Shown here piece after piece: positions 2,569-36,378 of a stretch of DNA of 43,389 nucleotides. The stretch covers positions 1 to 43,389 of the IMG/VR virus record IMGVR_UViG_2778261064_000026. The stretch is one strand, 5' to 3'. The stretch's first letter is position 1, and each line of letters opens with the position of its first letter. Origin of the DNA: a virus. Lineage: Duplodnaviria; Heunggongvirae; Uroviricota; Caudoviricetes. Position numbers and translations under genes: made by a program. Under the pieces are notes generated by a model. That model was not told the origin of the DNA. It saw only the letters and a program-made list of their open reading frames with translations, and made no database searches.

Positions 2569-2604
2569 GCGGCCTAAATCGACGTATAACGAGCTAAAAC
2601 AGTT

Positions 2605-2636
2605 AAGGGGTACAGATGTACCCCTTTTTAATTTAA
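2605..2636. terminator. bidirectional terminator between convergent genes
   Basis: aaggggtacagatgtacccctt hairpin with flanking A and T runs. Confidence 0.55.
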
Positions 2637-2641
2637 TTGCG

Positions 2642-3817
2642 TTAGGCAGCGTCTAAGAGAGTATTAAAGTATTCATCCATTAAATCAGGACTGTCGTCAT
2701 CAATACAGAAAAATTCCGGTTTATTGATGCCGTAGAAGTGAGTATGTAGCTTGAATGTATCGTCATCAAATACATCTTTCTGGGATACCCACATATTAGC
2801 CTCGTCCGGTTGATTGGTTAGGTAGTCATAAACCAGTTGCTGTAAGTGTGGTAACTCATCAATAGTCAGAGTTTCCGACCATCCATCCTTGAAATCTTTG
2901 TAGGGTGCTGCATGAGTCTTGAAGCGTTGTTTTACTTCATGCTCTAAATCAACGGCTTTCCAACCATCCTCAAACTCATGAGTAAAGATTAAGCGGTGAG
3001 TGAAGTTGCTCTTTCTGGTTTGCTCTCTCATTCGTTCTTCTGGTTTCCGGGTAGTGATTCCAAATTTAATAAATTTGTCATCTAATAATTGAATATAGAA
3101 ACTAGCCTTACCCTGATAAGTCCGGTTAGACAGTTGCACCAGTTGGTCTTTAATGCAAAGCGGACAAGTGAAAGAATCAGCACATCTTAAATGAGATTCC
3201 CATTCGTGATTATGTGTCTTGCAATAGGTTTTAAATTTAACATCCTTTAGGTGTGGGGTGTTTATGATGAATCCTTTGAAGGTGTAAGGCGTACTCTCGC
3301 AACGTGCATTGATGATTGTCTCTTTGTCCTTAATAACTTCATCAAAAGTCTTGCCACTTCTTACCCGTTGGGATTTTTCAGCCATACAGATTTTGCAATC
3401 AAAATCGAAATCATCTTTGAGAGCATGTAATAGAGATGGCGTCATGATTTGATTGTGTTCAGGGCACAAAACACGGGATTTTGTCTTGTTGCGCCCTTTC
3501 CATTCTCCTTGCCATCCGAGGAATTTCTTTCCCTTCTCATTACAACGAGATTCCATTTTCAACCATACAGCCTTTTCAGTCTGGAGTAACTCACCCCCGT
3601 TAGTATCTTCCAGTTTGCGTAATTTGTAGTCCTTATATTCTTGTGTATCTAAATTGTAGATTCGAAAGTAAGTGTGATTACCCTTCCACGGTAGGATAAA
3701 TCCACCAAATACGAAAGCAGGTTCCAGTTTAGCGATGATTCGTTGTTGGTACTCTTCCGGCGATAAACCGCGAGTTTTCTTAACAAAAGGAATTTCGGCA
3801 GCGTAAGCAAGTTTCAT
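2642..3817 (-). CDS. T5orf172 (GIY-YIG-like) domain protein with several Cys-pair zinc-finger-like motifs, about 391 aa from internal ATG
   Basis: FIKFGITTRKPEERMREQ motif; multiple CxxC/CxxH pairs; start moved to MKLAYAAE because of RBS gaggaaact; track ORF extends to 3928. Confidence 0.5.
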   Translation of the reverse strand: MKLAYAAEIPFVKKTRGLSPEEYQQRIIAKLEPAFVFGGFILPWKGNHTYFRIYNLDTQEYKDYKLRKLEDTNGGELLQTEKAVWLKMESRCNEKGKKFLGWQGEWKGRNKTKSRVLCPEHNQIMTPSLLHALKDDFDFDCKICMAEKSQRVRSGKTFDEVIKDKETIINARCESTPYTFKGFIINTPHLKDVKFKTYCKTHNHEWESHLRCADSFTCPLCIKDQLVQLSNRTYQGKASFYIQLLDDKFIKFGITTRKPEERMREQTRKSNFTHRLIFTHEFEDGWKAVDLEHEVKQRFKTHAAPYKDFKDGWSETLTIDELPHLQQLVYDYLTNQPDEANMWVSQKDVFDDDTFKLHTHFYGINKPEFFCIDDDSPDLMDEYFNTLLDAA

Positions 3818-3876
3818 AGTAGTTTCCTCTAAAATAATAAGCTCACTACTATTTATTAGAGAAAATTGTCTTACTA

Positions 3877-3904
3877 TTGCATTCTCTATCTGGATGTGTA
3901 CAAT
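3877..3904 (+). promoter_or_regulatory. sigma70-like promoter (TTGCAT, 16-nt spacer, TACAAT) for the 3971 gene
   Basis: hexamers read directly from sequence. Confidence 0.3.
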
Positions 3905-3970
3905 ACGCGACCCTAAATCCCAAACCAACCATATTGAGGTTATGCCTATAAGTTAAAAAGTGAGGTCTAT

Positions 3971-4540
3971 ATGATTCCAGTAATGGCTAAAGATATTGTT
4001 TTTACTCCTAAATCCTCCCGTGCTGCAACTCCATCGGCATTAGAACAACGCATTCTGACTCACATCAAAGAGAAGGACTTACCGTTAGTCTTTCATGGCT
4101 TTCTGGGTGAGTTTAAAGGGCTTCATTCAAGAATTGCTCTTACATGTACCCGATGCGGCAATAGAGCCGACAAATCAGCTACCAACCTGCTTAATGAAGG
4201 TAAACGCTGTGCATGTCTCAAAAGTGATTACTTTCAATATAAAGCGGGTGTGCCTTATCTCTATGTAATGAAATCAGGGGATATTGGTAAATTTGGTGTA
4301 ACAAAGTCAATCATCAAGCGACGTGTTAATCTGGGTGTACGCAATCCCGGTCATAACTTTGATATTGTCTTTGCTGGTGAAATGCCATCAATGAAACATG
4401 CTTTAGCCACTGAAAGAGCAATAAAGAGATTACTGGATGTGGGTATAGGCGGGATTGAATACGGCAAAACTGAAACATTCCACTACTGCAATAAATCACT
4501 AAACAATATAAAGAATATTGCAAGTGTGGAGTGGAACTAA
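3971..4540 (+). CDS. T5orf172/GIY-YIG-like domain protein, 189 aa, N-terminal Cys cluster
   Basis: YLYVMKSGDIGKFGVTKS motif; RBS gtgagg; stop overlaps helicase start (TAATG). Confidence 0.4.
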   Translation: MIPVMAKDIVFTPKSSRAATPSALEQRILTHIKEKDLPLVFHGFLGEFKGLHSRIALTCTRCGNRADKSATNLLNEGKRCACLKSDYFQYKAGVPYLYVMKSGDIGKFGVTKSIIKRRVNLGVRNPGHNFDIVFAGEMPSMKHALATERAIKRLLDVGIGGIEYGKTETFHYCNKSLNNIKNIASVEWN

Positions 4541-6030
4541 TGCAAGATATTAAAATTCATTTTCAAGATTACAGTTTCGTTAAGGTTGATTGCTCTCCTT
4601 CTATCGGAATGGAATTAAGAGATTATTTCTCGTTTGAGGTTGAAGGGGCTAGGTTTAGCCCCCGCTACAAGTATTCCGGCTGGGATGGACGAATAAGACT
4701 GTTTACGCATGAAAATATCCTACCAATTGGACTATTAAAAACGTTGGGTGTCTTCGTTAAAAATATGGGCTATTCAGTCTGGATTGACCCGCGATTGCTT
4801 GAGAAGGAAGATGTAACCAAAGACGCGATTAATGAATGGATTGATTCCCTAGAAGTGTATTCCGGTTCCAATAAAATCAATCCTTACTGGTATCAAAGGG
4901 AGGCAGTCTTTCAGGGTATCCATAATCGCCGTAGAATGCTGGTTCTTCCTACCAGTGCCGGAAAGTCATTGATTGCTTGTATGCTGTCTCGTTGGTACTT
5001 AGAGAACTACACCGGAAAGATTCTAATCATTGTCCCGACTACATCGCTGGTGGTTCAAATGAGGGATGATTTTGTTGATTATCGGTTATTCCCTTATGAA
5101 GCAATCCATACAATGATGAGTGGTAGCGGGAAACATCCGGGAGACAGGTTAATCACGGTTAGTACCTGGCAATCAGCTTGCAAGATGCCTCCTGAATGGT
5201 TCAAACAATATGGAATGTTGATAGTTGATGAATCGCATAAGGCTAGTGCCAAAAATATTACCAATATCATTAACGGAATGAATCATTGCCAGTTTAAGAT
5301 CGGTATGACTGGTTCCCCGAAAGAATCAAAGTGCCATTTAATGCAATACGTCGGTATGTTCGGTGATATTTCTAAGATCGTGAGTATTGACCGCCTGATG
5401 GAAGAAGGGCAGGTGACAAAACTGAAAATTAACTGTCTTTTCCTTCGTTATACCGATGAGGAATGTAGCGCGGTTAAGGGGCGAGAATATGCGGAAGAGA
5501 TCAAGTACATCACTTCGCACGGGAGACGAAATAAGTTTGTGTGTAATTTGGCGCTAAAACTCGCTAAGAAGAACGAAAACGTATTTCTGATGTTCCGTAA
5601 CACTAAACACGGAAAACTTATGTATGACGCGTTACAGAAGGTACATGATAAGGTTTATTACATTGATGGTGGAGTTAAGACAGAAGAACGTGATGAATTT
5701 AAGAAAATGGCGGAGGGTGACACCGGGATCATTTGTGTTGCGTCTTATGGTGTGTTCTCTACTGGTGTTTCAATTAAGAACTTGCACCATGTCATTTTCG
5801 GTCATCCGGTGAAAGAATCAACTATCGTTCGTCAGAGTATTGGCCGTGCATTGCGTAAACATGGTTCTAAGGATATTGCGACCGTCTGGGATCTTATCGA
5901 TCATCTGTGTATATTCGGTCGTAACGGAAAAGTCAAGCATAAAAATTATGCGGTAAAACATGCACTTGAGAGAATCCGCTATTATCTAACCGACAAGTTC
6001 AGCTATGCAACTAAAACAATTGCTATATAA
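4540..6030 (+). CDS. SF2 DNA helicase, UvsW-like (recombination/repair helicase), 496 aa from ATG 4540
   Basis: Walker A LPTSAGKS, DExH box IVDESHKAS, motif VI QSIGRALRKHG; N-terminal domain and motif order resemble my recollection of T4 UvsW. Confidence 0.7.
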   Translation: MQDIKIHFQDYSFVKVDCSPSIGMELRDYFSFEVEGARFSPRYKYSGWDGRIRLFTHENILPIGLLKTLGVFVKNMGYSVWIDPRLLEKEDVTKDAINEWIDSLEVYSGSNKINPYWYQREAVFQGIHNRRRMLVLPTSAGKSLIACMLSRWYLENYTGKILIIVPTTSLVVQMRDDFVDYRLFPYEAIHTMMSGSGKHPGDRLITVSTWQSACKMPPEWFKQYGMLIVDESHKASAKNITNIINGMNHCQFKIGMTGSPKESKCHLMQYVGMFGDISKIVSIDRLMEEGQVTKLKINCLFLRYTDEECSAVKGREYAEEIKYITSHGRRNKFVCNLALKLAKKNENVFLMFRNTKHGKLMYDALQKVHDKVYYIDGGVKTEERDEFKKMAEGDTGIICVASYGVFSTGVSIKNLHHVIFGHPVKESTIVRQSIGRALRKHGSKDIATVWDLIDHLCIFGRNGKVKHKNYAVKHALERIRYYLTDKFSYATKTIAI

Positions 6031-6810: not shown

Positions 6811-7494
6811 TTAAACGTATCTCATGCGCGATTTAATGTGCTTATTAATGTTCTTAAGCATCATTTCCTCGTTGCTTTCCCACGATCCTAGCGTCGAATA
6901 ACGAGTAGAAATTTTATCTGACTTAACGGCAACAATTCGCTTGCTCTGTTTCTGTATGCGTTTCTCTAAGCGACGTTTTGCCACCGCCGATCCATTCCTA
7001 GCGCGTTTGGTTCGGGATTTCTTAGGCTTGTACTTCTTCATGATAAAAGTCCCTTCCTTGTTCTCTACCTTGATGAAGTTGCCATTTTCGATGTTACGCA
7101 TCATCTTACCGCCTTTAATGGCCTTAATGTTCCCGTGGGAGTCTAAGACCTTACCGTTAGCTATTGGCACTAGCTTATTGATTTTGCCACCATCGAAATA
7201 GTGTTTCAGATAGTCGTCTTGACTGCCGATCTTCTTGTCCTTATCCCTTGCGCCCTTGATGAAGATTTGGTGTCTCGTCCCTGATCGGTTCTTGTAGTTG
7301 GTATTACCTACAGCTTGCTGAGTCCAGCGAGTAGGTCTATCAACATTCTTGTTAATCTTCTTCTGGAGTGCTCTGGAAGCAAAGATCGCCCCTTCCCCTA
7401 TCGCCCTTTCGAATGTATCGGTTGCTTTATCAGTCCATTGGCGTAACGCTTTCTTAGTCCTTAGAGCGTTTCGTTTATTGGTACTGGTTGCCAT
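6811..7494 (-). CDS. very basic hypothetical protein, 227 aa (K/R-rich)
   Basis: ORF track; RBS agggggc; composition. Confidence 0.4.
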   Translation of the reverse strand: MATSTNKRNALRTKKALRQWTDKATDTFERAIGEGAIFASRALQKKINKNVDRPTRWTQQAVGNTNYKNRSGTRHQIFIKGARDKDKKIGSQDDYLKHYFDGGKINKLVPIANGKVLDSHGNIKAIKGGKMMRNIENGNFIKVENKEGTFIMKKYKPKKSRTKRARNGSAVAKRRLEKRIQKQSKRIVAVKSDKISTRYSTLGSWESNEEMMLKNINKHIKSRMRYV

Positions 7495-7495
7495 G

Positions 7496-7666
7496 TTAGC
7501 CCCCTAATAACGAAAAGACCCCCGCCAGTGTCCTTAGCAATTGCTCATCCACGGTCATAGCCGGGAGTTCAAGCCCAAAGGACGTTAGCAGAGGTCTAAT
7601 TGCTACGTTATAAGTGAGGGCGATAATCAAGAGATAACCAAAATATTTCTTAAGTTTATTCTTCAT
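7496..7666 (-). CDS. small single-pass membrane protein, 56 aa (holin-like candidate)
   Basis: hand-translated MKNKLKKYFGYLLIIALTYNVAIRPLL...; RBS aaggggtg; overlaps next start. Confidence 0.3.
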   Translation of the reverse strand: MKNKLKKYFGYLLIIALTYNVAIRPLLTSFGLELPAMTVDEQLLRTLAGVFSLLGG

Positions 7667-7684
7667 ATATTCACCCCTTTATTA

Positions 7685-7963
7685 TTATTTTTGTTTGAGT
7701 ATGTCGAGAACTTGGTCAAATTTGGCGTCCATCGCAACCACTTTCTTCTCTATACCGTGTAGTGTTTGTTCCATGCGATAAACTCTCTCGGCGATCTGGT
7801 CGTGGTTACTTTGCATTGTTTCAAACTTCTGATTAAACAATGCATCATTGGACTCTAATTTCGACAATCTATTTTCTGTTGCTAATTGATTTCGGTGAAG
7901 TCTCCAAAGACCACCACAAATTAAGGCGATAACACCGATACCGCCATATATAATTTCAGTCAT
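7685..7963 (-). CDS. N-terminal TM plus coiled-coil protein, 92 aa (i-spanin-like or holin-like)
   Basis: IIYGGIGVIALICGGLW hydrophobic segment followed by heptad-like region. Confidence 0.4.
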   Translation of the reverse strand: MTEIIYGGIGVIALICGGLWRLHRNQLATENRLSKLESNDALFNQKFETMQSNHDQIAERVYRMEQTLHGIEKKVVAMDAKFDQVLDILKQK

Positions 7964-8004
7964 TACGCCCCCGATATTTTATAATTTAATGGCAGAATTA
8001 TTTA

Positions 8005-8047
8005 GATAAAAATAATCCCGCCTAACCCAAAAGAATTAAGCGGGATT
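8005..8047 (-). terminator. terminator-like hairpin after J-like gene
   Basis: aatcccgcctaacccaaaagaattaagcgggatt stem with U-run on minus strand. Confidence 0.4.
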
Positions 8048-8065
8048 AATTATTAGAATTAAATT

Positions 8066-11000
8066 TTAAGAAACAGAAATACCAGTAGCGGCTTTCTTAG
8101 TTACCATTACCGTTAGATCGCTGATCCATGTGCTGGGAGTCCAGTTGTTGATTGCGCTTGAACTTACTTCAAAAGTTAGCGTAACTGGTCCGTGTCCGGC
8201 TGGCATATCAATAACAGCACTATACAATCCAGTCTGTCTACCATATGCACGGTTATATAATTCAGCACCGTTCTTGCGAACAATCAAGCGACAGTTATCA
8301 TAGTAAGTATTGTTATTCGAGCCTTCACGCGCATTAAGACCACCAAAGCTAATAGCCGGAACGATAATCTGACGATCAAACGGGTGATCATCTTCAATTC
8401 GAACAGTGATTGTACCTTGCGGATAACCGGGATAGCCCAATGATGGGTTTTCGTCCCAATGTGGGAATCGACGACCAATAGCTTTCACGAAGTCACCACG
8501 CACCTGATTAGCATCAAGCATACCCAAAATGCGGCAACTTGAATTAATCGTTACGTTGTTCATTTCGCCGGAATCAGCCACCAAATGACCACGAATATTA
8601 GCGTGTCTAAAATGACAAGTGCCATCTTTGCCGATATACCATCCATCGTTACCATTCCAGTTATAAGACTGGATATAGTTACCAATTTTAGCATTATCGA
8701 TAGAGCCATCAATGATATGACCTGTTCCGATCTGTGCGTGTTGGATGTGAGCGCCGTTAATCTGGGCTGTGCCGATTTTAGCCGTGGTGATACTAGCATC
8801 ACTAATCTGGGCTGTGCCAATTGCAGCATTACGAATCATCGCATTATCGAGATAAACTTTGTTATCTTCGATACCAAACGGGCATACTTCCGATCCGTTC
8901 TGTGGAGCTACCGCGATTTTATCAGCCGTAAAGATGATTCTCGTCGGTTGCGCCGGATCGTTGGTTGCGCTCATATGAATACCAGCCACGCGACCATCTG
9001 CATTAACCGCCAGATTATATTTGCTGTTAATGGTTCCCTTCAAAGCATCGATTTTTACATCTGCTTCCTGATTCACACCAGCAATCTTGCCATCCATTTC
9101 TACCCGAACTTGGTCGATCTTACTTGCGCTTGCTGCCTCACTGGTAGCAATTGCTTGTTTCAGGGTAGTAGCAGATGCGCTAACTTCATTGGTGATATCG
9201 CCTTTCAGTTCAGCTTTAACCTGATCAATCTTAGTGGAGCTAGCTTGCTCGCTGGTAGCAATCAGACTCTTGAGAGTATCGGCTGAGGCTTGGACCGTCT
9301 GCCCTGTCTCGGTAGTAATCTGTTTATGCATTGCATCAATCTTAGCATCGGCATTAGCGCCAGCTTGAGCAATAGCATCCGCGATGGTTTCATCTAAGCG
9401 ATCTTGTAAACCAATCAGGTCTTCAAGTGCTTCTTTGTCCTGATCGTCCCAGCTAATGGTAGATTTCATTTGCATGAAATACGGTTCAGACCAAACAGCA
9501 TCATCCATACCGAAAATATCGTAGTGAGCACCACGGATATAATAATCACCGTCAGCCAAATCAAAGGAAGTATGACTAACGCTATTGGTAGTCACTGCCC
9601 TTGCATCTGAGAAAGTGTTATCGGTTGCATACTGGATGATTGACCCTGCATAGTCATGTTCTACGTCATCCGCCCAGCTAACAAACGCAGTATTAAAGCC
9701 ACCACGCGCACTAAAACCTTTCATCGGCTTATGTTGTTGGTTGATAGCCACTAAACGCGCTGGGGCGCTCTCTGAGTTGTTATAGCCCTTAACGGATACT
9801 TCTACCGTCAGTTCACGGGAAAGGCCGTTAAACTGGTTCATATCAAGCGTATAGGTCCATGATTCAGGATCGCGGGTACGGTACTGAATAGACTTACCAG
9901 CCTTGTTAGTTACCTTGATAATGTAGGCTTCAAACAGGTCACTAAACTTGTTAGTTTCACCGTTGATAACCACATCTAAGGCTTGCTGATTTTCCCATTC
10001 GATAATCAGATCATTGCCTTCAAAAGTTCCTGGTGTGCTACCCTGATTTTTGATGCGGATCACTGGCGTAGGCAGTTCATAGGTAACTTCTGGATTCTGG
10101 TTAACCAGTTCCACCCATTCGGAACGAGCAATAATACCGAAAGCACAAACGCGGTAATCGTAGGAACGATCTTTTGCCAGTGCATTGATATTGAAAATTT
10201 GCTGTGAAGTCTGTCCCAGCTTAATCCAGTTAGGTGATCCACTCACACGATAATCAATCTGGAAACCGTAGCGGTTAAAATCTTCCGGTGCGTCCCATGT
10301 CAAAGTTACGTTTTTACCGTGGATTGTCTCACCAGTTGCCTTAATTCTGAAATTAGTCGGTTTCTGTACTGTCATTGAATCCGGTAAACCGGTAGGTCTA
10401 TTGTCTGGAGTCGCCGCATAGTTCAGGTCAGTATAAACCTGAGAATTATATTCTGTGGCGGTGATAGTCATCATCCCAGCAATACCAGAATCAATCGAGC
10501 GATCAATTGCAGTAATGCGCCAAAGTGAATTATTCAGTTTCAATTCATCATAGGTAACGCTAATAACATCCCACACTTCGGCAGTGAATGCGTCAGTAGT
10601 CATGAAGCTGATAACCTGAGTGATACGAGATTTATTTCGCTCAATGCTCGCGAGTTTATCAATCTGGGCTTTAGACTTAACAAAACGATATTCAATATCT
10701 TTAGCGATAATTCGACCATCTTGACGAATAGTAGCATCGTTTTCAGCATCAGCCGGATAACGTAGCATTTGCTCGGAATAGTCAATTGATGGTTCTTGAT
10801 ACATCGCGTTAATGGTATTGAAATAACCGTTAGTGCCACCTGTTTTCAGTGATACTTTACCCATCATAATATTGTCTTCATTGAAGGTATGCTTAACAAT
10901 ATCAGGAGCATCCAGTTTCAGGGTAATTCTTCCGAAGGATTCGAACATTACCCCGCCGAAAGTCTGCATAAGGCTAGTCAAGTTCTCTTTAAAGCTGGCG

Positions 11001-27440: not shown

Positions 27441-29345
27441 TTAGAACGATGTTACCCAGCTACGGCCTCTATTTGGACGTCTGGCGATGTTTTGACGTTG
27501 TGGTCGTGTGATTGGCTTAGTTTCTTCGATTTGCTCGTCAGATTGCGTTTCAGGAGCTTTTACGGGTTCTTCTGGTTCACGGTTCAAACTATCTTTGATG
27601 GCTTCGAGTTTTTCCCATGACATTTTATTGAGTACATGGCGAGAAGCAGCATAGGAATAAGCCAGGCAGTCGAGAGCCTCGTTTCGTTGCTGACCAACTT
27701 TTACCCAACGTGTGGTGTTACCCTGCCGTTTCAACTGTTCAGAAAGCAATTGCTCGCAATAGTCATCAGGAACGTCGCCAATCTGGAAGACAGTGTGAGG
27801 ATCGCCATCTCTCAAATTCCGGTTAATCATTTCACGGATCATCGTTTTAAGGTTGTTTACGCCCAGAATTTTAAGGGTAAAACCACCCGTTCTTGTGTCT
27901 TTTACCGGAAGGATTGGTGCATCAACATTGCTTGCGCCTTTAATGGCGGTTAGATTTTGCCACCGACTACAGAATCGATAGATCACTTGCGTAGCTCGTC
28001 CGTTCGATGAGTCCACGAAAGCAGATAACATCGGGATTCGTTCACCGGATCGGGTATAGAATTTCGCTTTCAGGAAGTTGTAAAGCTGGTCATATGCTGG
28101 TGATTCGTGGCGTTCGCAGTTCACATCATAGAATGATCGGTGATCAACTACGCATAGCCCTTTACGAGAAATACCCAGCAAGGTAGATTCCAGACGGTCT
28201 TTTTGCTGGTCAACTCCACCAACCAGAGCCAGTACATCATCAGGAATATTGTCTAGGCTAATATCAGTTTTCAGCGTTTCTAATTCGTCGGCTGTGCGGT
28301 CTTCGTTAAGATCATCGAAGGTTTCACCGAGGACTGTATTGTAGAACGTTGCCAGGGACATATTCGCGTAGCTATCAGCAAAGTCCACCACACACGCACG
28401 GATAGAACTAAACGGAGACATAAGGCGGTTAGCATGAAAACCGATTACTTCCGCGTTTGGTTCGGTGGCGACCCATTCTCCCTTAGCAACAGCACGTAGG
28501 CGATCCCCTTCGGTCCAATCGGTTTCACATTCAGGGCAACGGTAAACGGCTGTATCTGGGTTGGGTAATGATTTACCGTTAATCGTATGCCAATCGAAAT
28601 GTACGTTACTCCATTCCATTACGTGCTTGTGTCCGCAATGCTGGCAAACGACATGATATTTTCTCTTATCCGAGAGTTCCCATTGTTGGTTAATCGCCCC
28701 ATCACGAGCGGTTGGAGTGGAAGCAATTACGATCCTTGCATCTTCCCCGAAAGTGGTTGCGCGTTGTTCCGCTAGCTGGATCGGGTTCCCTTCGTCTGAT
28801 TCATCAGCCGCATCAACTTCATCAAGAATAATCAAAGGGAGTGTCTTACCGCGCAAGTGTGATGGACTGTTCAGCGACATGAAATACATGAATGATCCAT
28901 TACGAAGCTGAATAATCGATGAGTTGTTAACAGCATTACGGTCTGATTTGTCGGTGATCATCGCTTTTAATTCTGGCGTTGCCTCTAATACTGGCTTCAC
29001 CTTACCAGCGATCCAAGAATTTAGTTCCCTAACGTTACTTTGCAACACCCCAATATTCGTAGGGTTACTCGCGATCCGATGGAAGATAATTCCGTTAAGA
29101 ATCATGGTCTTACCCAACTGCGCCGAACATTTAAACACAATTTTTCTACGGTCTTCGGTGATCGCGTCCATCATTCCACGTTGGAAGGGATGCAATTTAA
29201 TTAGCGATCCGGCTTTAACACCATCGGTTGCAACTACATTAGCCTCTACCCATTCGCTAGGTTTCATCGTTTTAGGTGGGCGAATTGCCGCAGAGATATT
29301 TTTAAGAATCTTTTTTAATTTGGCCTTATTAGAAATCAGTTTCAT
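27441..29345 (-). CDS. terminase large subunit, lambda gpA family, 634 aa from MKLISNK
   Basis: Walker A KCSAQLGKT; CQHCGH zinc motif; NTVLGETF and RNEALDCLAYSYAA segments matching gpA-family landmarks; RBS gaggg before ATG 29345; track ORF extends to 29420. Confidence 0.85.
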   Translation of the reverse strand: MKLISNKAKLKKILKNISAAIRPPKTMKPSEWVEANVVATDGVKAGSLIKLHPFQRGMMDAITEDRRKIVFKCSAQLGKTMILNGIIFHRIASNPTNIGVLQSNVRELNSWIAGKVKPVLEATPELKAMITDKSDRNAVNNSSIIQLRNGSFMYFMSLNSPSHLRGKTLPLIILDEVDAADESDEGNPIQLAEQRATTFGEDARIVIASTPTARDGAINQQWELSDKRKYHVVCQHCGHKHVMEWSNVHFDWHTINGKSLPNPDTAVYRCPECETDWTEGDRLRAVAKGEWVATEPNAEVIGFHANRLMSPFSSIRACVVDFADSYANMSLATFYNTVLGETFDDLNEDRTADELETLKTDISLDNIPDDVLALVGGVDQQKDRLESTLLGISRKGLCVVDHRSFYDVNCERHESPAYDQLYNFLKAKFYTRSGERIPMLSAFVDSSNGRATQVIYRFCSRWQNLTAIKGASNVDAPILPVKDTRTGGFTLKILGVNNLKTMIREMINRNLRDGDPHTVFQIGDVPDDYCEQLLSEQLKRQGNTTRWVKVGQQRNEALDCLAYSYAASRHVLNKMSWEKLEAIKDSLNREPEEPVKAPETQSDEQIEETKPITRPQRQNIARRPNRGRSWVTSF

Positions 29346-29430
29346 GTAATTACCCTCATTACGAAATATGAAGGTATTTATTAAATTGTTGATTTTTTGA
29401 TAAATACGGGTATTAATCAAAGGGGGTTGT

Positions 29431-31783: not shown

Positions 31784-32236
31784 TTACAGCATATCTAAGC
31801 CTTCATCGTAACCGTAGAAGCCACCGTGAGAAGAGAAACAGATTGGTGTGTAGTCGTCGTCATCTTCGTCTTGTTCATCGTGTTCTGGGGCTTCCTGAGC
31901 GGGTTGTTTACCATAATCAGCCATAATCTGGTCAAGATCGGCGATCCCATAGTAAGAGCCTAAATCAACGTCATATTCACGAACATCAAACGGCAGGTCA
32001 TCACGAACAATAATTGCCGGAATGTTGTTGTATTGTTCACGACCTTCATCAGTAAAGCAGTCTACGATCACCGTAGGGCGACCATTACGTTTAAGAGCAT
32101 AGAAAGCAGTTGAGAAATTGGAGTCTTCGGAATGACGAATGATGTTATAACCACGATTAGCGAAAACATGCATCATAGCCAGATTATCATCATGGTTCAG
32201 ACCCAGAAGAATGAAAGGAGTTTTAGTATTGATCAT
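31784..32236 (-). CDS. hypothetical protein, 150 aa, with acidic C-terminal tail
   Basis: ORF track; RBS agagga; EHDEQDEDDDDY tail. Confidence 0.4.
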   Translation of the reverse strand: MINTKTPFILLGLNHDDNLAMMHVFANRGYNIIRHSEDSNFSTAFYALKRNGRPTVIVDCFTDEGREQYNNIPAIIVRDDLPFDVREYDVDLGSYYGIADLDQIMADYGKQPAQEAPEHDEQDEDDDDYTPICFSSHGGFYGYDEGLDML

Positions 32237-32497
32237 AGTGGAAATCCTCTAAAAGAAAGTGAATCAAACAAAGTACACTATTATTTATAACGAGAAATTT
32301 TTGTCTAATTTGAAAGGAATTGGTATTCAGTCGGCTTCGCCTCCTTCATAGATTTTGATTAAATCATCATCAAAACGAAGAAGTATCTTTAGAATATAAG
32401 AATCTTTCTTTTGGAGAAATTATAATCAGGAAGCAATTTAGCAACCGAAGGTTGCAATCCCGAAGGGATAACCAATACCTTTCATGATCATTAAAGT

Positions 32498-32720
32498 GAT
32501 CTAGAATCATCTAGTAACCAGTTAACTACTATTATCTTCAAAGTGATTATTACTATCTTTCTAGAATCAGTTAGTAACTAGTTTAAAAATCCCTTTCAAG
32601 AAAATCCTTTCAGAAGTGATTCTCGATGCCACGCAGTGGCGTCGCAGACGTTTGAGAGTGAGCGAAGCGAGCGAGCAAACTAGTTAATTCCTTCTAAGAC
32701 CATCTAGTATCATCTAGTTT
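32498..32720. repeat. cluster of CTAG-rich palindromic repeats
   Basis: ctagaatcatctagtaaccagttaact, ctagaatcagttagtaactagtt, catctagtatcatctagtt; palindromes AGTTAACT, AACTAGTT, TTCTAGAA. Confidence 0.4.
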
Positions 32721-32865
32721 AAATTAGTGTTACTAGAAGTAATTGGTTAGCGCTTCGCGCAGTCGGGCTACGCCCTCCTAATATCTTTTTGGTTATTTGT
32801 TGTTTTTGGTTTTACACATGAGCGTAGCGAATGTGTTATATAATATCTATGCACGCCCGATTCCC

Positions 32866-33110
32866 CGTTTTTGCCCCTCGCTAAGTTAATGTTTTATAAA
32901 GAGTTTTTCTCACCAATCCTTTTCGGGGGCAAATTTCAGGGGCAAAAATTAGATTTTCAGGGGCAATTATTGGCATTTCAGGGGCAAAAATGAGGGGCAA
33001 AATCACCGTTTCCCAGAATTTCAGGGGCAAAAATAGTAGGTTTCAGGGGCAAAAATGGGATAGTGAAATCTAGGGGATTTTGGTTCAGGGGCAAAATTCA
33101 GGGGCAATTT
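32866..33110. repeat. iteron array: nine direct copies of (T)TCAGGGGCAA(AAAT) plus one inverted copy
   Basis: GGGGCAA cores at about 32926, 32939, 32960, 32981, 32995, 33024, 33046, 33088, 33101; inverted at 32871; spacings mostly 13-14, 21-22, 42 bp. Confidence 0.65.
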
Positions 33111-33148
33111 TCATAGTGTAGTGCTAGTGTAGGTTTGAAAGTCCTTTC

Positions 33149-33177
33149 TTGACACTATGTAGGTTTGGTGCTATACT
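33149..33177 (+). promoter_or_regulatory. near-consensus sigma70 promoter P1 (TTGACA, 17 nt, TATACT)
   Basis: read directly from sequence. Confidence 0.6.
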
Positions 33178-33206
33178 TGACAATTTGAGAAAAAATGTGG
33201 TATAAT
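33177..33206 (+). promoter_or_regulatory. consensus sigma70 promoter P2 (TTGACA, 18 nt, TATAAT), overlapping P1
   Basis: read directly from sequence. Confidence 0.6.
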
Positions 33207-33626
33207 ATTTGTATTGAAAGTGAAAATTTACCGATTTTCCTTCCTATTGTTATCACCGTGTTAAATTGTTATATGTTTGTGAAGATTTGGATCTGAGAGA
33301 AAATCTTGTAACAAATCTTTACAATTCATAGCTCAATTAATGCTCACCGCTTTAGCAAAAAGTGCTATGCATTTTTCTAAATTGATTGAATAAACATCAA
33401 TTTGGTTAATTCGTGTTCTTCTCTTTAGCAATTCGTGCTGCGGTTTAACACATTTAACACGTCTGATAACATCTGAATAACATTTTAACATATCTCTGTT
33501 ATAAATACATATATAAGAGATAAATGTGAGGGGTTGAAAAATAAAATACAATCCCCATATAAATAATAGTGAGCGGTTAACGCTCTTTTTTAAGAAATCA
33601 TTAATCCAGATTTAGGAGGATTTAAG

Positions 33627-33809
33627 ATGGCACGACCTGTTAAGTTCACTCGTGAAATCGTTTTAGAAATGGCAAAGCGTTATTTTGAACTGACACCTGA
33701 TGTAGTGATGGGTGAATGGTTTAAAGGTGAAGGTATTGATCAATCAACCTTCCACAAACTCTTAAAGAAGTATGACATTAAAGTAAAGATTACCGCAGAG
33801 GTGTGGTAA
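33627..33809 (+). CDS. small HTH DNA-binding protein, 60 aa (FTRE...KKYDIK family)
   Basis: MARPVKFTREIVLEMAKRYF...GIDQSTFHKLLKKYDIK; RBS aggagga. Confidence 0.5.
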   Translation: MARPVKFTREIVLEMAKRYFELTPDVVMGEWFKGEGIDQSTFHKLLKKYDIKVKITAEVW

Positions 33810-33922
33810 TAACCTTTCACTGAGAATTATATGATGGCTTTAAAAAAGAAAAAGCCTCCCTTGTTGCAGCAAAGGAGGCTTGAAATGAACAATTAAAACT
33901 AACTTTCCACGGAGTATTTATA

Positions 33923-34864
33923 ATGTTATTTTCCGCTAACTTTTTCACTAACGAAGTAACCAACGCTAAAGCAGTTATCAAATTTGGCACCGAAGCAAAC
34001 AAGAAGATTCAGCCGAAAGTTGTTGCTCATGTTTCCTTTGCGCAGCAGAAATCCGCTTTCGCTGGCTTTAAAGCACATCGTGAAGCACTGATCGCGGCTG
34101 GCTTTGGTGTTGACGGTAAACTGCCTAACGGCATTCGTAAAGCAATCGACCGCGTTAAACCTGCTAAAGACGTTGCAGTAGACCGCATCGTTACTTTTAC
34201 CGTTAAGAACTCTTCTGAACTGTTCCACCTGGTTATTGCTGGTGATACTGCTATCGTTTCCGCTCCTAACATGGATTTTCAGGATACCGCTGATTGCCAG
34301 ATCACCTTCGGTCGTCGTAAAGAAGTTACCGGAAAAGCTAAACTGAACTTCACTAAATCCGGCAATCCTTACTTTGCTGTTTTCTTTAACAGCCACGCTA
34401 CCGAAAAAGAAGTTGTAGAACTGGTTGCTTATGAAGGTGAAGAGAAAGAACGTATTGAATCTTGCGAAGCATTTCTGGAACTGGAAGCACAGGTGAATGC
34501 TGTTTCTCCGGTTGTTGAAGATCGCTTTGCTGCACTGGAAGCACAGATCGCAGAACTGAAAGCTGCACTGGAAGAAAAAGACCAGATTATCGAAGCACAG
34601 AAAGCTGAGATTGAAGAACTGAAAGCTAAAGAAGTTGCTCCGGTAGCAGTAGTTGAAAACGCGGCTGATGAGGCCGCAAATGATGAAGTAGAAGTGAAAA
34701 TCGATGTGATGCGTGATCCGATGGCTGCACTGCAATTACTTCGTTCTTTTAAGGGCAAATCTCATTTTTCTAGTGATGTAGAAGATGAGGAAGAAGAACA
34801 GAAACGCAATGCTGCAATGCTTCATGATGAAATGTACGGTACTAACTTTTCTTACTGCCAATAA
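33923..34864 (+). CDS. hypothetical protein, 313 aa, with central coiled coil and acidic patches; likely highly expressed
   Basis: host-optimal codons (ctg, cgt, ggt, aac, ttc); first large ORF downstream of tandem consensus promoters. Confidence 0.5.
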   Translation: MLFSANFFTNEVTNAKAVIKFGTEANKKIQPKVVAHVSFAQQKSAFAGFKAHREALIAAGFGVDGKLPNGIRKAIDRVKPAKDVAVDRIVTFTVKNSSELFHLVIAGDTAIVSAPNMDFQDTADCQITFGRRKEVTGKAKLNFTKSGNPYFAVFFNSHATEKEVVELVAYEGEEKERIESCEAFLELEAQVNAVSPVVEDRFAALEAQIAELKAALEEKDQIIEAQKAEIEELKAKEVAPVAVVENAADEAANDEVEVKIDVMRDPMAALQLLRSFKGKSHFSSDVEDEEEEQKRNAAMLHDEMYGTNFSYCQ

Positions 34865-35527: not shown

Positions 35528-36094
35528 TTAAGACACATCAAATTCATCGTCTTCTTCTGGTTCTTGTTCCGGTTCATCCATTAATGGTAATTCTTCTTCC
35601 TCGTCTTCACCAAAATCTGCATTTTCGAACAAGTCCCCTACTTCATTTAAACGACGCTCGATGATCTCCCTTAGCTTATTCTTCAATGTTTTCTGATCAG
35701 TGGCAGATTCGAGAATTTCTAAAGCGTCGATTGTGGCGATCTGCAAAATAGTCTGCTTCACTTTTCCGCAATATTCCGCTAGTTGCTGTTCTACATACCC
35801 GACAGGAATCAGGAGATTCATTGCTTCCTGGTTCTCTCGTTCGGCTGCGTCCGCTAATGCTCTCTCGCGGCGTAACTTCTCTACGTCGATTTGTTCTTTG
35901 ACAGTAGTTTCCCTGAGTGGACTGATGATATTTTTTGCTATCCATTCGGTCCCTTCCTTGAGCGGTACGCGTCGTGTATTGGTGTTAAATGGCATTCCTC
36001 GTTCTTGCCATTTCTTAGCGGCGTTAATTGTATAGCCGTATAAGCGGGAAATTTCTGTAAGGGTTAATTCTTCTTTCATCCGGTTATCCTCCAT
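35528..36094 (-). CDS. Nu1-like DNA-binding protein (candidate terminase small subunit), 188 aa
   Basis: N-terminal LTLTEISRLYGYTINAAKKWQERGMPF resembles lambda Nu1 winged-HTH (TIQNWQEQGMP) as I recall it; very acidic C-terminus. Confidence 0.4.
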   Translation of the reverse strand: MEDNRMKEELTLTEISRLYGYTINAAKKWQERGMPFNTNTRRVPLKEGTEWIAKNIISPLRETTVKEQIDVEKLRRERALADAAERENQEAMNLLIPVGYVEQQLAEYCGKVKQTILQIATIDALEILESATDQKTLKNKLREIIERRLNEVGDLFENADFGEDEEEELPLMDEPEQEPEEDDEFDVS

Positions 36095-36378
36095 TAAATT
36101 TGCGTAAAATTATTTATCTGATCTGCGCATTCAGGAGAGCGCCTAAAACGCTTTATAACGAAGGGAAAGATCGAGGCGAGGAAAGGGATTGGCTGGTGTT
36201 AATAGTCGCGTAGCGACCGCGCTGGTGGGCTGCACTGCACCTGTTTTGAAATCTCACACGCACATCAAAAACCGGGGTGCCGAAAACTCGCTTTATTTCA
36301 CCCGTGGAACAGTACCTATCAATTTTGTCAAGTCTTTTTTATAAATAATCGAAAATATTTTTCACGCGAGGGCAAATC

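What the first reader, a model, noticed from the sequence alone, without database searches (positions are those of the whole stretch)
32440..32720. CTAG-rich palindromic repeat cluster and paired GAA-loop hairpins
Upstream of the iterons there are two adjacent small hairpins (gcaacc-gaa-ggttgc and atccc-gaa-gggat), several related about 20-bp repeats (ctagaatcatctagtaaccagtt and variants), and the perfect 8-bp palindromes AGTTAACT, AACTAGTT and TTCTAGAA. Together with the iterons this makes a dense 1.3 kb cis-acting region with no ORF of 60 aa or more. It could hold operators for a repressor or a packaging/replication site.
Basis: seen in the sequence. Interest (0 to 1): 0.5.

Follow-up and report, generated by a model that had tools for sequence, protein, structure and literature searches.

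The report
Conserved phage control region: repeats plus mini-hairpins
This stretch is a real, evolutionarily conserved non-coding control module of an uncharacterised temperate E. coli phage: protein-binding CTAG repeats interleaved with very stable GNA-loop DNA mini-hairpins. It sits next to the phage's iterons and most likely helps organise replication or early-gene control; it is not the DNA-packaging site.

Summary
CTAG is depleted in the window (61 seen, 163 expected), yet 8 copies lie within 233 nt. The paired hairpins fold at z = -4.1. Six of the window's nine C-GNA-G triloop hairpins fall in 32441-32775.

The window is a 36-kb serine-recombinase prophage in E. coli ycdX. The finding lies in a 1.39-kb gap between divergent small-gene operons, and 45 relatives in E. 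coli, Salmonella, Proteus and Edwardsiella keep this architecture.

Across them an ordered block persists:
- a promoter-like core element, also found about four times per genome in T4-type Krischviruses;
- a tandem mini-hairpin pair;
- the CTAG unit CTAGAAyCAGTTAGTAAC, 17/18 identical even in Proteus;
- further GC hairpins whose stems change but whose GNA loops persist (19/28 versus 5/31 elsewhere, p = 6e-5);
- a T-rich tract;
- class-specific iterons that co-vary with the adjacent 313-aa orphan protein.

Terminase variation does not track the region, and a Nu1-like TerS with a likely cos lies 3.5 kb away, so packaging is disfavoured.

Best reading: this is the constant accessory half of an iteron-type origin or early-control region. 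I infer protein-binding arrays plus DNA mini-hairpins resembling ssi priming signals. Function is unproven.

The parts
32311..32349 (.). Left copy of a ~40-nt direct repeat: motif TGAAAGGAATTGGT followed by CAGTCGGC-TTC-GCCTCCT. It contains hairpin hp0 (32333-32341), whose loop reads GAA on the minus strand.
   Evidence: In relatives the stem and loop vary (gggc-AAA-gccc, gggc-TAAA-gccc).
32355..32431 (+). Promoter-like core element TTGATTAAAT..CAAAACGAAGAAGTATCTTTAGAAT... It is shared with Krischvirus (RB49-type) phages.
   Evidence: About 80% identity to 59 Krischvirus genomes, about 4 copies each. TAGAAT becomes TATAAT in L033 and in Salmonella.
32441..32455 (+). Mini-hairpin hp1, gcaacc-GAA-ggttgc. 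It contains CCGAAGG.
   Evidence: Present in 37/40 E. coli-type gaps. Replaced by gacgctc-CCT(A)-gagcgtc (L012, L033) and by gcccc-GTA-ggggc (Salmonella).
32457..32469 (+). Mini-hairpin hp2, atccc-GAA-gggat, 1 nt after hp1. It contains CCGAAGG.
   Evidence: Kept in Salmonella. Edwardsiella has a different tandem pair (atgttgc-GAA-gcaacat / ttgtgc-GTA-gcacaa).
32471..32500 (.). Inverted pair of M1 half-sites, ACCAATACCTTTCA ... AAAGTGAT, around the palindrome ATGATCAT (a Dam site).
   Evidence: (I8, I20). In L037 the equivalent site is a perfect 21-bp palindrome centred on CTAG.
32500..32527 (+). CTAG unit (M2) copy 1: TCTAGAATCATCTAGTAACCAGTTAACT.
32541..32548 (+). M1 half-site AAAGTGAT.
   Evidence: (D8).
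32559..32587 (+). CTAG unit (M2) copy 2: TTCTAGAATCAGTTAGTAACTAGTTTAAA. This is the most conserved element of the region.
   Evidence: At least one copy in 39/40 E. coli-type gaps. Exact in Salmonella L126 and 17/18 identical in Proteus and Salmonella L127. Chance expectation is 7e-6.
32588..32622 (.). AATCCCTTTCAAGAAAATCCTTTCAGAAGTGATTC: two M1-type minus-orientation half-sites plus an imperfect palindrome.
   Evidence: The block is conserved in Proteus and Salmonella.
32625..32650 (+). GC-rich hairpins hp3 (gatgccac-GCA-gtggcgtc) and hp3b (cgtc-GCA-gacg).
   Evidence: The same position holds acgcc-GTA-ggcgt, gcgccc-CGCA-gggcgc or ccgcg-CTCG-cgcgg in other classes.
32656..32676 (+). GAGTGAGCGAAGCGAGCGAGC, containing the canonical mini-hairpin heptamer GCGAAGC (32662-32668).
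   Evidence: GAGCGAAGC is present in 36/40 gaps.
32676..32742 (+). Third CTAG cluster. It holds five 10-bp-phased half-sites: TCTAAGACCA, TCTAGTATCA, TCTAGTTTAA, ATTAGTGTTA, CTAGAAGTAA.
   Evidence: (D3). After adding the degenerate half-site CTAA at 32694 by eye (it is not a YTAG match), spacings are 10, 10, 10 and 9. The cluster is present in the window class, L012 and Salmonella L127, and absent in the L010 class.
32733..32782 (-). Right copy of the direct repeat, with hairpins hp4 (gcgc-TTC-gcgc, 32750-32760) and hp5 (gggc-TAC-gccc, 32765-32775). Their loops read GNA on the minus strand.
   Evidence: Variants are gcgc-TAC-gcgc, acggc-TAC-gccgt and gggc-TAAA-gccc.
32783..32818 (+). T-rich tract with TTTTTGGTT twice (32786, 32803) and one DnaA-box-like TTTTACACA (32810). 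I take it as a candidate unwinding element.
   Evidence: The box is not enriched. The unwinding role is inference only.
32921..33109 (+). Iteron array TTTCAGGGGCAAAA (context, outside the finding).
   Evidence: D1, D2. The iteron type differs between classes.
33627..33809 (+). 60-aa three-helix protein conserved in all relatives. It is my candidate binder of the constant motifs.
   Evidence: AlphaFold pLDDT 77 with three helices. Nearest folds are HTH DNA-binding domains, but none is significant.
33923..34864 (+). 313-aa orphan protein that co-varies with iteron class. It is my candidate iteron binder or initiator.
   Evidence: No family or fold assignment.

Best explanation
The region 32311-32782 is the constant, class-independent half of a composite cis-acting control region of a temperate siphovirus lineage. 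It sits beside a variable half made of a T-rich tract and class-specific iterons, which I infer are recognised by the co-varying 313-aa protein.

Shown:
1. The order of elements is conserved across E. coli, Salmonella and Proteus relatives, and partly in Edwardsiella: core promoter-like element, tandem mini-hairpins, CTAG unit, CCCTTTC repeats, GC hairpin, GAGCGAAGCG, hairpin pair, T-rich tract, iterons.
2. The CTAG unit is kept almost letter for letter.
3. The hairpins are kept as structures, with changing stems and a strong preference for C-GNA-G triloops.

Inferred:
1. The CTAG units (10-bp-phased TCTAGwAwCA half-sites) and the AAAGTGAT/CCTTTC motifs are binding sites for family-wide phage DNA-binding protein(s). 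The conserved 60-aa three-helix protein next door is the leading candidate. Binding would build a phased nucleoprotein array.
2. The C-GNA-G hairpins act as DNA, not RNA. When the region is unwound they would fold into extraordinarily stable mini-hairpins that SSB binds poorly, as reported for mini-hairpin sequences in PMC13037366.
3. The plus-strand set (hp1-3, left) and the minus-strand set (hp4-5, right) lie back to back. If they work as single-strand initiation (priming) signals like G4 oric or RSF1010 ssiA/ssiB, they would start divergent DNA synthesis next to the iterons.
4. The core element may supply an activating or priming transcript, as at T4 oriE.
For: Non-randomness:
- CTAG is 18-fold enriched here.
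- The hairpin pair folds at z = -4.15.
- Six of the nine C-GNA-G hairpins with stems of at least 4 bp in 43 kb lie within 335 nt. Counting stems of at least 3 bp gives 7 here, and the maximum in 5000 Markov shuffles was 4.

Conservation:
- M2 is present in 39/40 E. coli-type gaps, is exact in Salmonella, and is 17/18 identical in Proteus. The chance expectation is 7e-6.
- The hairpin pair is present in 37/40 gaps and is replaced by other tandem pairs in L012, L033, Salmonella, Edwardsiella and Krischvirus.
- hp3 has four unrelated stem versions at the same position.
- Of 28 distinct GC triloop hairpins in the gaps, 19 have GNA loops, against 5/31 elsewhere (Fisher p = 6e-5). A 5'C-G3' closing pair occurs in 24/28.

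Strand and neighbours:
- Both strands of the region fold well (z = -4.3 and -3.3), which fits DNA dyad symmetry rather than one RNA.
- Iteron class tracks the 313-aa protein: 98-100% identity within a class against 16-29% between classes.
- The motifs occur nowhere else in the phage.

Literature: d(GCGNAGC) mini-hairpins are far more stable as DNA than as RNA. They occur at the G4 origin, in RSF1010 ssiA (CCGAAGG, the heptamer found in both hp1 and hp2) and in N4 promoters (PMC13037366). T4 oriE combines iterons, an early promoter and a site of transcriptional divergence, and UvsW removes origin R-loops (PMC3016281). This phage encodes a UvsW-type helicase.
Against: - There is no experimental or transcript data.
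- The 313-aa protein has no similarity to any known initiator. Its model is mediocre (pLDDT 62) and the best fold matches are generic beta-barrels.
- No primase, DnaA-box or IHF-site enrichment was found.
- Hairpins hp3-hp5 are not thermodynamic outliers on their own (z about -1).
- Some loop variants are not GNA (AAA, TAAA, CCT).
- One relative (L030) has lost the core element and the hairpin pair, so these are not needed for prophage maintenance.
- The 60-aa protein's HTH assignment is weak (Foldseek E > 1). Its link to the CTAG unit is only co-occurrence, and all relatives were found through this protein, so the sample is biased.
- Edwardsiella keeps the protein (75% identity) but has only a degenerate CTAG unit.
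Confidence: 0.45

Rival explanations
1. Pure transcriptional switch. The CTAG and AAAGTGAT repeats are operators for a phage repressor or antirepressor circuit that controls the divergent early operons (p150-p110-Rha to the left, p60-p313 to the right). The hairpins are incidental or act as insulators.
For: - The region lies between divergent operons.
- L037 has a perfect 21-bp palindrome centred on CTAG, and other classes have imperfect versions.
- A GAAAG..CTTTC palindrome overlaps the -35 of the strong promoter at 33149 (I5, 41).
- A Rha/antirepressor-like gene is adjacent.
Against: - The conserved M2 units are direct, 10-bp-phased repeats rather than palindromes.
- They lie 600 bp from the near-consensus promoters.
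- No repressor-like protein is recognisable.
- This reading does not explain the structure-conserved, GNA-biased hairpins.
Confidence: 0.25
2. RNA-level elements in a PeSL-like cassette. The core element is a promoter and the tandem hairpins are 5'-UTR stabilisers, attenuators or terminators of a non-coding transcript. The repeats double as recombination hot spots for modular shuffling, as proposed for RB49/phi1 PeSLs.
For: - The core plus tandem-hairpin module recurs about 4 times per Krischvirus genome, upstream of co-oriented genes.
- The -10-like TAGAAT is TATAAT in Salmonella and L033.
- Copy-number changes and the L030 deletion occur between repeats.
- A ~40-nt direct repeat brackets the region.
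- PeSL stem-loops were shown to terminate transcription (PMC2839356).
- The plus-strand RNA fold has z = -4.3.
Against: - No -35 is conserved.
- The next ORF downstream is about 1.2 kb away in the window.
- No U-tracts follow the hairpins.
- Triloops closed by C-G with GNA are the DNA-stable design, and the RNA versions are much weaker.
- The minus strand folds nearly as well.
- No Rfam family matches.
Confidence: 0.2
3. Packaging site (cos or pac). The repeats are terminase small-subunit binding sites and a GC island is the cut site.
For: - The region lies between the TerS and TerL genes.
- It has GC-rich islands in AT-rich DNA and phased repeats that resemble cosB or pac.
Against: - L003 has a 98%-identical gap but TerL at 59% and TerS at 85% identity. 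L014 has TerL/TerS at 98-99% but a different hp3 island, no hp4/5 and different iterons.
- TerS has a lambda Nu1-like N-terminus (by eye, plus a faint Phage_Nu1 Pfam hit on the Edwardsiella homologue). A GC island followed by CCCTTTCC-type repeats lies just upstream of its gene at about 36190-36240, where lambda-type cos is expected.
Confidence: 0.04
4. No function. The cluster is neutral repeat debris left by slippage or recombination in a non-coding spacer.
For: - Copy number of the CTAG unit varies from 1 to 4.
- The third CTAG cluster is absent in one class.
- L030 has a deletion of part of the region.
Against: - The M2 unit is conserved across genera while the surrounding sequence and the iterons diverge.
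- Hairpins at fixed positions change stems but keep a biased loop type.
- CTAG is otherwise counter-selected in this genome.
Confidence: 0.04

Closest known systems
RSF1010 (IncQ) oriV: iterons, an AT-rich segment, and ssiA/ssiB priming hairpins on opposite strands
   Same: - An iteron array sits next to an AT/T-rich tract.
- Short GC hairpins of the mini-hairpin type lie on opposite strands.
- ssiA contains CCGAAGG, the heptamer present in both hp1 and hp2 (PMC13037366).
   Different: - No RepB'-type primase, RepA helicase or RepC homologue was found.
- There are many more hairpins here, interleaved with protein-binding repeats.
- The function is untested.
- The element belongs to an integrating phage, not a plasmid.
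Lambdoid ori / plasmid iteron origins (specificity module plus constant module)
   Same: Iteron type swaps together with one adjacent protein, while the neighbouring non-iteron DNA stays constant across classes. From my own knowledge of lambdoid origins, iterons co-vary with the O protein N-terminus and the AT-rich arm is conserved.
   Different: - The iterons lie outside the gene.
- The protein is an orphan with a beta-rich N-terminal domain and a coiled coil rather than a winged-helix Rep or O protein.
- No DnaA or IHF sites were found.
T4 oriE (and the R-loop origins oriF/oriG)
   Same: - It has a cluster of evenly spaced direct repeats of unproven role.
- It depends on an early sigma70-type promoter.
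- It lies at a point of transcriptional divergence.
- A UvsW helicase is encoded by the phage (PMC3016281).
- The core element is shared with T4-type Krischviruses.
   Different: - There is no sequence similarity to T4 oriE, and this was not tested directly.
- The host phage is a 36-kb temperate siphovirus without the T4 replisome.
PeSL cassettes of RB49/phi1 (promoter-early stem-loop)
   Same: - An AT-rich promoter-like element is followed by GC-rich stem-loop(s).
- Repeats mark the boundaries of indels.
- The core sequence is about 80% identical to a Krischvirus intergenic repeat.
   Different: - PeSLs have consensus -35/-10 boxes and end in an SD plus the start codon of an ORFan, at about 50 copies per genome.
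- Here there is no conserved -35 and no downstream ORF. The prophage has a single copy, and the matching Krischvirus repeat has only about 4 copies.
d(GCGNAGC) DNA mini-hairpins (Hirao); the phage G4 oric and N4 vRNAP hairpin promoters
   Same: The hairpins have a C-G closing pair, GNA triloops and 4-7-bp stems. Both an exact GCGAAGC and a GCGTAGC are present.
   Different: - No N4-type virion RNA polymerase is possible in this genome, since the largest ORF is 1258 aa.
- Formation of the hairpins in vivo is unproven.
Phased direct-repeat arrays bound by small proteins (P2 Cox boxes, lambda Xis sites, R1 parC/ParR). This comparison is from my own knowledge.
   Same: There are five or more half-sites at 10-bp spacing on one face of the helix, next to a small basic helical protein gene.
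   Different: No homology of the 60-aa protein to Cox, Xis or ParR was detected, and binding is untested.

Membership tests
Iteron-type replication origin | Tandem direct repeats (iterons) in non-coding DNA | tested here: met
   There are 7-9 copies of TTTCAGGGGCAAAA at 32921-33109. Other classes carry TGTAGGTTT, CGGGGAy, GGAATCTTGGGGATTT, CTAGGGATG or ATCGCAAACAC.
Iteron-type replication origin | A cognate initiator encoded nearby whose specificity co-varies with the iterons | tested here: inconclusive
   Co-variation of the 313-aa protein with iteron class is clear. The protein has no initiator homology or fold.
Iteron-type replication origin | An adjacent AT-rich unwinding element and host-factor sites (DnaA, IHF) | tested here: inconclusive
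   A T-rich tract lies at 32783-32818. There is only one DnaA-like box, which is not enriched, and no IHF consensus in the gap.
Iteron-type replication origin | It supports initiation of replication | not testable with these tools
   This needs origin mapping or a plasmid-replication assay.
Single-strand initiation (ssi) / G4-type priming signals | Stable hairpins in ssDNA, of the mini-hairpin (C-GNA-G) type | tested here: met
   CCGAAGG occurs in hp1 and hp2, as in ssiA.
Single-strand initiation (ssi) / G4-type priming signals | Recognition by a primase and primer synthesis | not testable with these tools
   No phage primase was found. Use of host DnaG cannot be assessed in silico.
PeSL cassette (RB49/phi1) | A sigma70-consensus -35 and -10 | tested here: not met
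   Only a -10-like TAGAAT/TATAAT is conserved. No promoter was called here by the consensus scan.
PeSL cassette (RB49/phi1) | A GC-rich stem-loop adjacent to the promoter | tested here: met
   A tandem hairpin pair follows the core element in the prophages and in all Krischvirus copies seen.
PeSL cassette (RB49/phi1) | It ends in an SD and the start codon of a downstream gene | tested here: not met
   There is no plus-strand ORF for about 1.2 kb downstream in the window. The feature is met in the Krischvirus copies.
Lambda-type cos site | It lies immediately upstream of the Nu1-type small terminase gene | tested here: not met
   TerS is at 35528-36094, and the cos-like island is at about 36190-36240.
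Lambda-type cos site | Its sequence co-varies with terminase specificity | tested here: not met
   Gap variants and TerL/TerS variants are uncoupled.
TrpR-type operator (CTAG pairs 8 bp apart) | GNACTAGTTAACTAGTNC-like dyad | tested here: not met
   There is no match with up to 3 mismatches.
Known structured RNA family | A match to an Rfam covariance model | tested here: not met
   There are no hits at gathering score and only chance-level hits at E up to 5.

The most novel reading that the evidence does not exclude
The region would be a new type of phage origin architecture. A class-swappable iteron/orphan-initiator module would be coupled to a constant module. In that constant module, back-to-back arrays of C-GNA-G DNA mini-hairpins (plus strand on one side, minus strand on the other) act as SSB-resistant priming or loading signals, organised by a CTAG-binding protein filament. 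Its promoter-plus-tandem-hairpin cassette would have been exchanged horizontally, as non-coding DNA, between temperate siphoviruses and lytic T4-type Krischviruses. That would imply the roughly four Krischvirus copies also mark replication or priming sites.
Probability: 0.2. Interest if true: 0.75.

Novelty: new variant of a known kind. Interest (0 to 1): 0.5.

Why it matters
This prophage lineage is common in E. coli: the gap matches 58 of 5426 complete genomes, and relatives occur in Salmonella, Proteus and Edwardsiella. It has no cultured relative (the best phage TerL match is 44% identical) and no recognisable repressor or initiator. This gap is therefore the best handle on how the phage replicates and switches.

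The conserved CTAG unit and the co-varying iteron/313-aa pairs are ready-made test objects for protein-DNA specificity.

The strongly GNA-biased, structure-conserved mini-hairpins are one of the clearest comparative indications that d(GCGNAGC)-type DNA hairpins are selected in a double-stranded DNA phage. Their biological role is still debated.

The non-coding cassette shared with T4-type phages extends the PeSL idea of mobile regulatory DNA across phage families and lifestyles.

Tried and rejected
- **Sequenced phages.** Megablast of the gap and of 10 kb of structural genes against 50,697 phage records found nothing. The plasmid collection also gave nothing.
- **Rfam.** No family fits at gathering or E-value thresholds.
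- **Other species' reference genomes.** A scan with the 60-aa protein found nothing. Relatives in other genera came only through the large protein database.
- **The 60-aa protein.** It has no family. The model is a three-helix bundle whose nearest folds are HTH domains, all at E > 1. It is suggestive only.
- **TrpR operator idea** for the CTAG/TTAA motifs: rejected.
- **DnaA and IHF sites:** not enriched.
- **Packaging-site idea:** rejected on terminase co-variation and on the position of the Nu1-like TerS.
- **RNA versus DNA.** Folding both strands did not discriminate strongly (z = -4.3 versus -3.3).
- **Proteus CTAG count.** The 19 CTAGs in the Proteus gap come mostly from its own CTAGGGATG iterons, so I did not use them as support for the CTAG cluster.
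- **M1 motif at 2 mismatches:** too loose to be informative, with 98 hits window-wide.
Full report
**1. Observation**

- hairpins gcaacc-GAA-ggttgc (32441-32455) and atccc-GAA-gggat (32457-32469), 1 nt apart;
- the ~24-nt repeat TCTAGAATCATCTAGTAACCAGTT (32500), with variants at 32560 and 32693/32703;
- palindromes AGTTAACT (32520), AACTAGTT (32576 and 32678) and TTCTAGAA (32559).

It is not chance.
- CTAG is strongly avoided in the window (61 seen against 163 expected). Eight copies lie in 32501-32733, the densest cluster in the window at about 18 times the window rate.
- The hairpin pair folds at -8.5 kcal/mol against -2.5 for shuffles, z = -4.15.
- The 19-mer unit matches only here.
- The 8-bp palindromes are only modestly enriched (5 against 1.2 expected, P about 0.01).

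One correction: the 1.39-kb gap (32237-33626) contains a mechanical 72-aa TTG ORF on the minus strand (33333-33551). RefSeq does not annotate it in the relatives inspected.

- five further GC-rich triloop hairpins: hp0 at 32333, then 32628, 32640, 32750 and 32765;
- the heptamers GCGAAGC (32662) and GCGTAGC (32822);
- a second motif family (GAAAGkrATTG / AAAGTGAT);
- a ~40-nt direct repeat bracketing the region (32311-32349 and 32733-32782);
- 10-bp phasing of the CTAG half-sites.

**2. Context**

The window holds a ~36-kb prophage inserted in E. coli ycdX, next to ghrA and tRNA-Ser. Its recognisable genes are:
- a large serine recombinase;
- a UvsW-type helicase and CapR-domain proteins;
- lambda-like structural genes with a gpA-type TerL;
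- a TerS with a Nu1-like N-terminus, 6 kb from TerL.

The finding lies between two divergent small-gene operons:
- leftward, a 150-aa protein, a 110-aa protein and a Rha-family protein;
- rightward, a 60-aa and a 313-aa protein.

Two near-consensus sigma70 promoters lie to the right of the iterons, at 33149 and 33177. No sequenced phage resembles the prophage at the DNA level, and the best phage TerL match is 44% identical.

**3. Comparative evidence**

The gap matches 58 of 5426 complete E. coli genomes. I collected 40 E. coli-type gaps (the window, 14 genome loci and 25 viral contigs). Through homologues of the 60-aa protein I added loci from Salmonella, Proteus and Edwardsiella. All keep a 1.2-2.6-kb ORF-poor gap upstream of the 60-aa gene.

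The element order is conserved:
1. a core element;
2. a tandem hairpin pair;
3. CCTTT-CTAGAAyCAGTTAGTAAC;
4. AAATCCCTTTCrAGAAAATCCyTTTCA;
5. a GC hairpin;
6. GAGCGAAGCG;
7. a hairpin pair;
8. a T-rich tract;
9. iterons.

The CTAG unit is present in 39/40 E. coli-type gaps, in 1-4 copies. It is exact in Salmonella L126 and 17/18 identical in Proteus and Salmonella L127, against a chance expectation of 7e-6. The flanking sequence and the iterons have diverged.

The hairpins behave differently from the CTAG unit.
- hp1+hp2 are unchanged in 37/40 gaps.
- Elsewhere they are replaced by other tandem pairs: gacgctc-CCT(A)-gagcgtc + GCGAAGC in L012 and L033; gcccc-GTA-ggggc + atccc-GAA-gggat in Salmonella; atgttgc-GAA-gcaacat + ttgtgc-GTA-gcacaa in Edwardsiella.
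- hp3 has four unrelated stem versions at the same position, and hp4/hp5 have several.

Of 28 distinct GC-rich triloop hairpins in these gaps, 19 have GNA loops (14 on the plus strand, 5 on the minus strand) and 24 have a 5'C-G3' closing pair. Elsewhere in the window the figure is 5/31 (Fisher p = 6e-5). In the window itself, 6 of the 9 C-GNA-G hairpins with stems of at least 4 bp lie within 32441-32775.

**4. Neighbouring modules**

The iteron type differs between classes: GGGGCAAAA, TGTAGGTTT, CGGGGAy, GGAATCTTGGGGATTT, CTAGGGATG and ATCGCAAACAC.

The 313-aa protein is 98-100% identical wherever the window's iterons occur. This holds even when the intervening leader and the 60-aa gene differ. 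It is only 16-29% identical in other iteron classes. This is the signature of a specificity pair.

The protein itself is an orphan. It has 13 hits among 1.84 billion representatives and no Pfam, PHROG, NCBIfam or PDB match. Its model (pLDDT 62) shows a beta-rich N-terminal domain, a long coiled coil and an acidic tail, with only generic fold matches.

The 60-aa protein is conserved in all relatives, including an invariant stretch in its third helix. It models as a three-helix bundle (pLDDT 77). Its nearest solved folds are HTH DNA-binding domains, but none is significant.

**5. Link to T4-type phages**

Window 32345-32431 is about 80% identical to an intergenic repeat present about four times in each of 59 Krischvirus (RB49-like) genomes. 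In viral contigs the core occurs only in this prophage family and in Krischviruses.

Every Krischvirus copy is followed within 25-60 nt by GC triloop mini-hairpins, usually a tandem pair 0-1 nt apart. A co-oriented gene follows, once preceded by a TATAAATA late-promoter motif.

The -10-like TAGAAT of the core is TATAAT in L033 and in Salmonella.

This resembles PeSL cassettes (PMC2839356) but fails two of their defining features: a consensus -35 and a downstream SD plus ORF.

**6. Interpretation**

Packaging is disfavoured. Gap variants and terminase variants are uncoupled: L003 has a 98%-identical gap but TerL at 59%, while L014 has TerL/TerS at 98-99% but different hairpin islands and iterons. 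A cos-like GC island with CCCTTTCC-type repeats also lies just upstream of the Nu1-like TerS gene, at about 36190-36240.

A TrpR-type operator is excluded. No Rfam family fits. Both strands of 32399-32800 fold far better than shuffles (z = -4.3 and -3.3), which points to DNA dyad symmetry rather than one strand-specific RNA.

The GNA-loop, C-G-closed design is that of d(GCGNAGC) mini-hairpins, according to PMC13037366:
- they are much more stable as DNA than as RNA;
- SSB binds them poorly;
- they are known at the G4 complementary-strand origin, in RSF1010 ssiA (CCGAAGG, the heptamer in both hp1 and hp2) and in N4 hairpin promoters.

T4 oriE offers a second analogue: iterons of unproven role, an early promoter, a point of transcriptional divergence, and UvsW as antagonist of origin R-loops (PMC3016281).

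I therefore read 32311-32782 as the constant accessory half of an iteron-type origin or early-control region. It would consist of phased protein-binding arrays (the CTAG unit and the AAAGTGAT/CCTTTC motifs, with the 60-aa protein as candidate binder) plus DNA mini-hairpins. The plus-strand set lies on the left and the minus-strand set on the right. If they are priming signals, this back-to-back arrangement would give divergent synthesis; that conclusion is inference from geometry.

What is shown is non-randomness, conservation, structural conservation with loop bias, co-variation of iterons with the 313-aa protein, and independence from the terminase. What is inferred is binding, hairpin extrusion, priming and origin function.

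**7. Caveats**

- There are no experimental data.
- hp3-hp5 are not energetic outliers on their own.
- Some loop variants are not GNA.
- L030 has lost the core element and the hairpin pair.
- DnaA and IHF sites are not enriched.
- No primase was found.
- All relatives were found through the gap DNA or the 60-aa protein, so co-occurrence with that protein is biased.
- A purely transcriptional operator role, or a PeSL-like RNA or recombination role, remains plausible and is not mutually exclusive with the origin reading.

**8. Verdict**

This is a real, conserved, multi-part cis-acting region. It belongs to known kinds of element (iteron-origin or control region, mini-hairpins, PeSL-like cassette) but in a combination not described before, in an uncharacterised but widespread prophage lineage. 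I rate it of moderate interest.

Noticed in passing
window 32345-32431: This non-coding core element is about 80% identical to a ~4-copy intergenic repeat of Krischvirus (RB49-like, T4-type) phages. In both groups tandem GC mini-hairpins follow it. The finding implies exchange of regulatory DNA between lytic myoviruses and a temperate siphovirus lineage.
   Followed up: yes
window 32276-32289 (-) and 33558-33571 (+): A perfect 14-nt inverted repeat, TATAAATAATAGTG, lies 45-55 nt upstream of the start codons of both divergent flanking genes. It contains TATAAATA, the T4 late-promoter consensus. It is probably a shared promoter or operator element.
   Followed up: partly
window 33128-33595: Two tandem near-consensus sigma70 promoters (33149-33177 and 33177-33206) are followed by a ~390-nt leader and an intrinsic terminator (33571-33595) just before the 60-aa gene. 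This could be a discrete non-coding RNA or an attenuated leader. TGTAGGTTTG boxes at 33128 and 33158 flank the -35 and match the iteron motif of another phage class.
   Followed up: partly
window 33923-34864 and 32921-33109: The 313-aa orphan protein (beta-rich N-terminal domain, coiled coil, acidic tail) co-varies perfectly with the iteron type across at least five classes. It is a candidate for a new family of iteron-binding proteins.
   Followed up: yes
window 35528-36094 and ~36190-36240: The lambda Nu1-like small terminase gene lies 6 kb from the gpA-like large terminase gene (27441-29420), with the whole early/control module in between. A GC-rich island followed by CCCTTTCC-type repeats upstream of TerS looks like cos.
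   Followed up: partly
window 889-2568; L042, L044: Members of the family integrate at different host sites through a large serine recombinase: ycdX here, hicB in strain OkiPb01713, and next to an lprI-family gene in strain H2.
   Followed up: no
window 2642-6030: A T4 UvsW-type helicase (4531-6030) and two CapR-domain proteins (one with a MUG113/T5orf172 domain) sit in a small temperate siphovirus that has no recognisable repressor, initiator, primase or polymerase.
   Followed up: partly
window 33333-33551 (-): A 72-aa TTG-start ORF lies inside the supposedly ORF-free gap. RefSeq does not annotate it in the relatives inspected. I did not assess its coding status.
   Followed up: no
window 33852-33881 (-): A strong minus-strand intrinsic terminator (12-bp stem plus T-run) lies between the plus-strand 60-aa and 313-aa genes. 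It would stop antisense transcription coming from the TerS side.
   Followed up: no
window 31784-32236 (-): By eye, the 150-aa protein has a receiver-like N-terminal half and a very acidic C-terminal tail (DEQDEDDDDY...DEGLDML) reminiscent of SSB or gp2.5 tails. It has no family hit.
   Followed up: no
L030 (viral contig), gap positions ~76-100: One relative has deleted the core element and the hairpin pair, with the junction lying between two copies of the GAAAGnGATTG motif. The repeats therefore act as recombination substrates, and this part is dispensable for prophage carriage.
   Followed up: partly
L120 (Edwardsiella tarda) 1365-4000 and 7413-8183: The Edwardsiella relative has a 2.6-kb gap that looks unusually rich in GATC (by eye, not counted) and carries four GNA mini-hairpins. 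A reverse-transcriptase-TIR gene sits at the prophage edge.
   Followed up: no
L122 (Proteus mirabilis) gap ~500-810: The Proteus relative's iterons are CTAGGGATG repeats, so its high CTAG count comes from the iterons, not from the conserved CTAG unit.
   Followed up: yes
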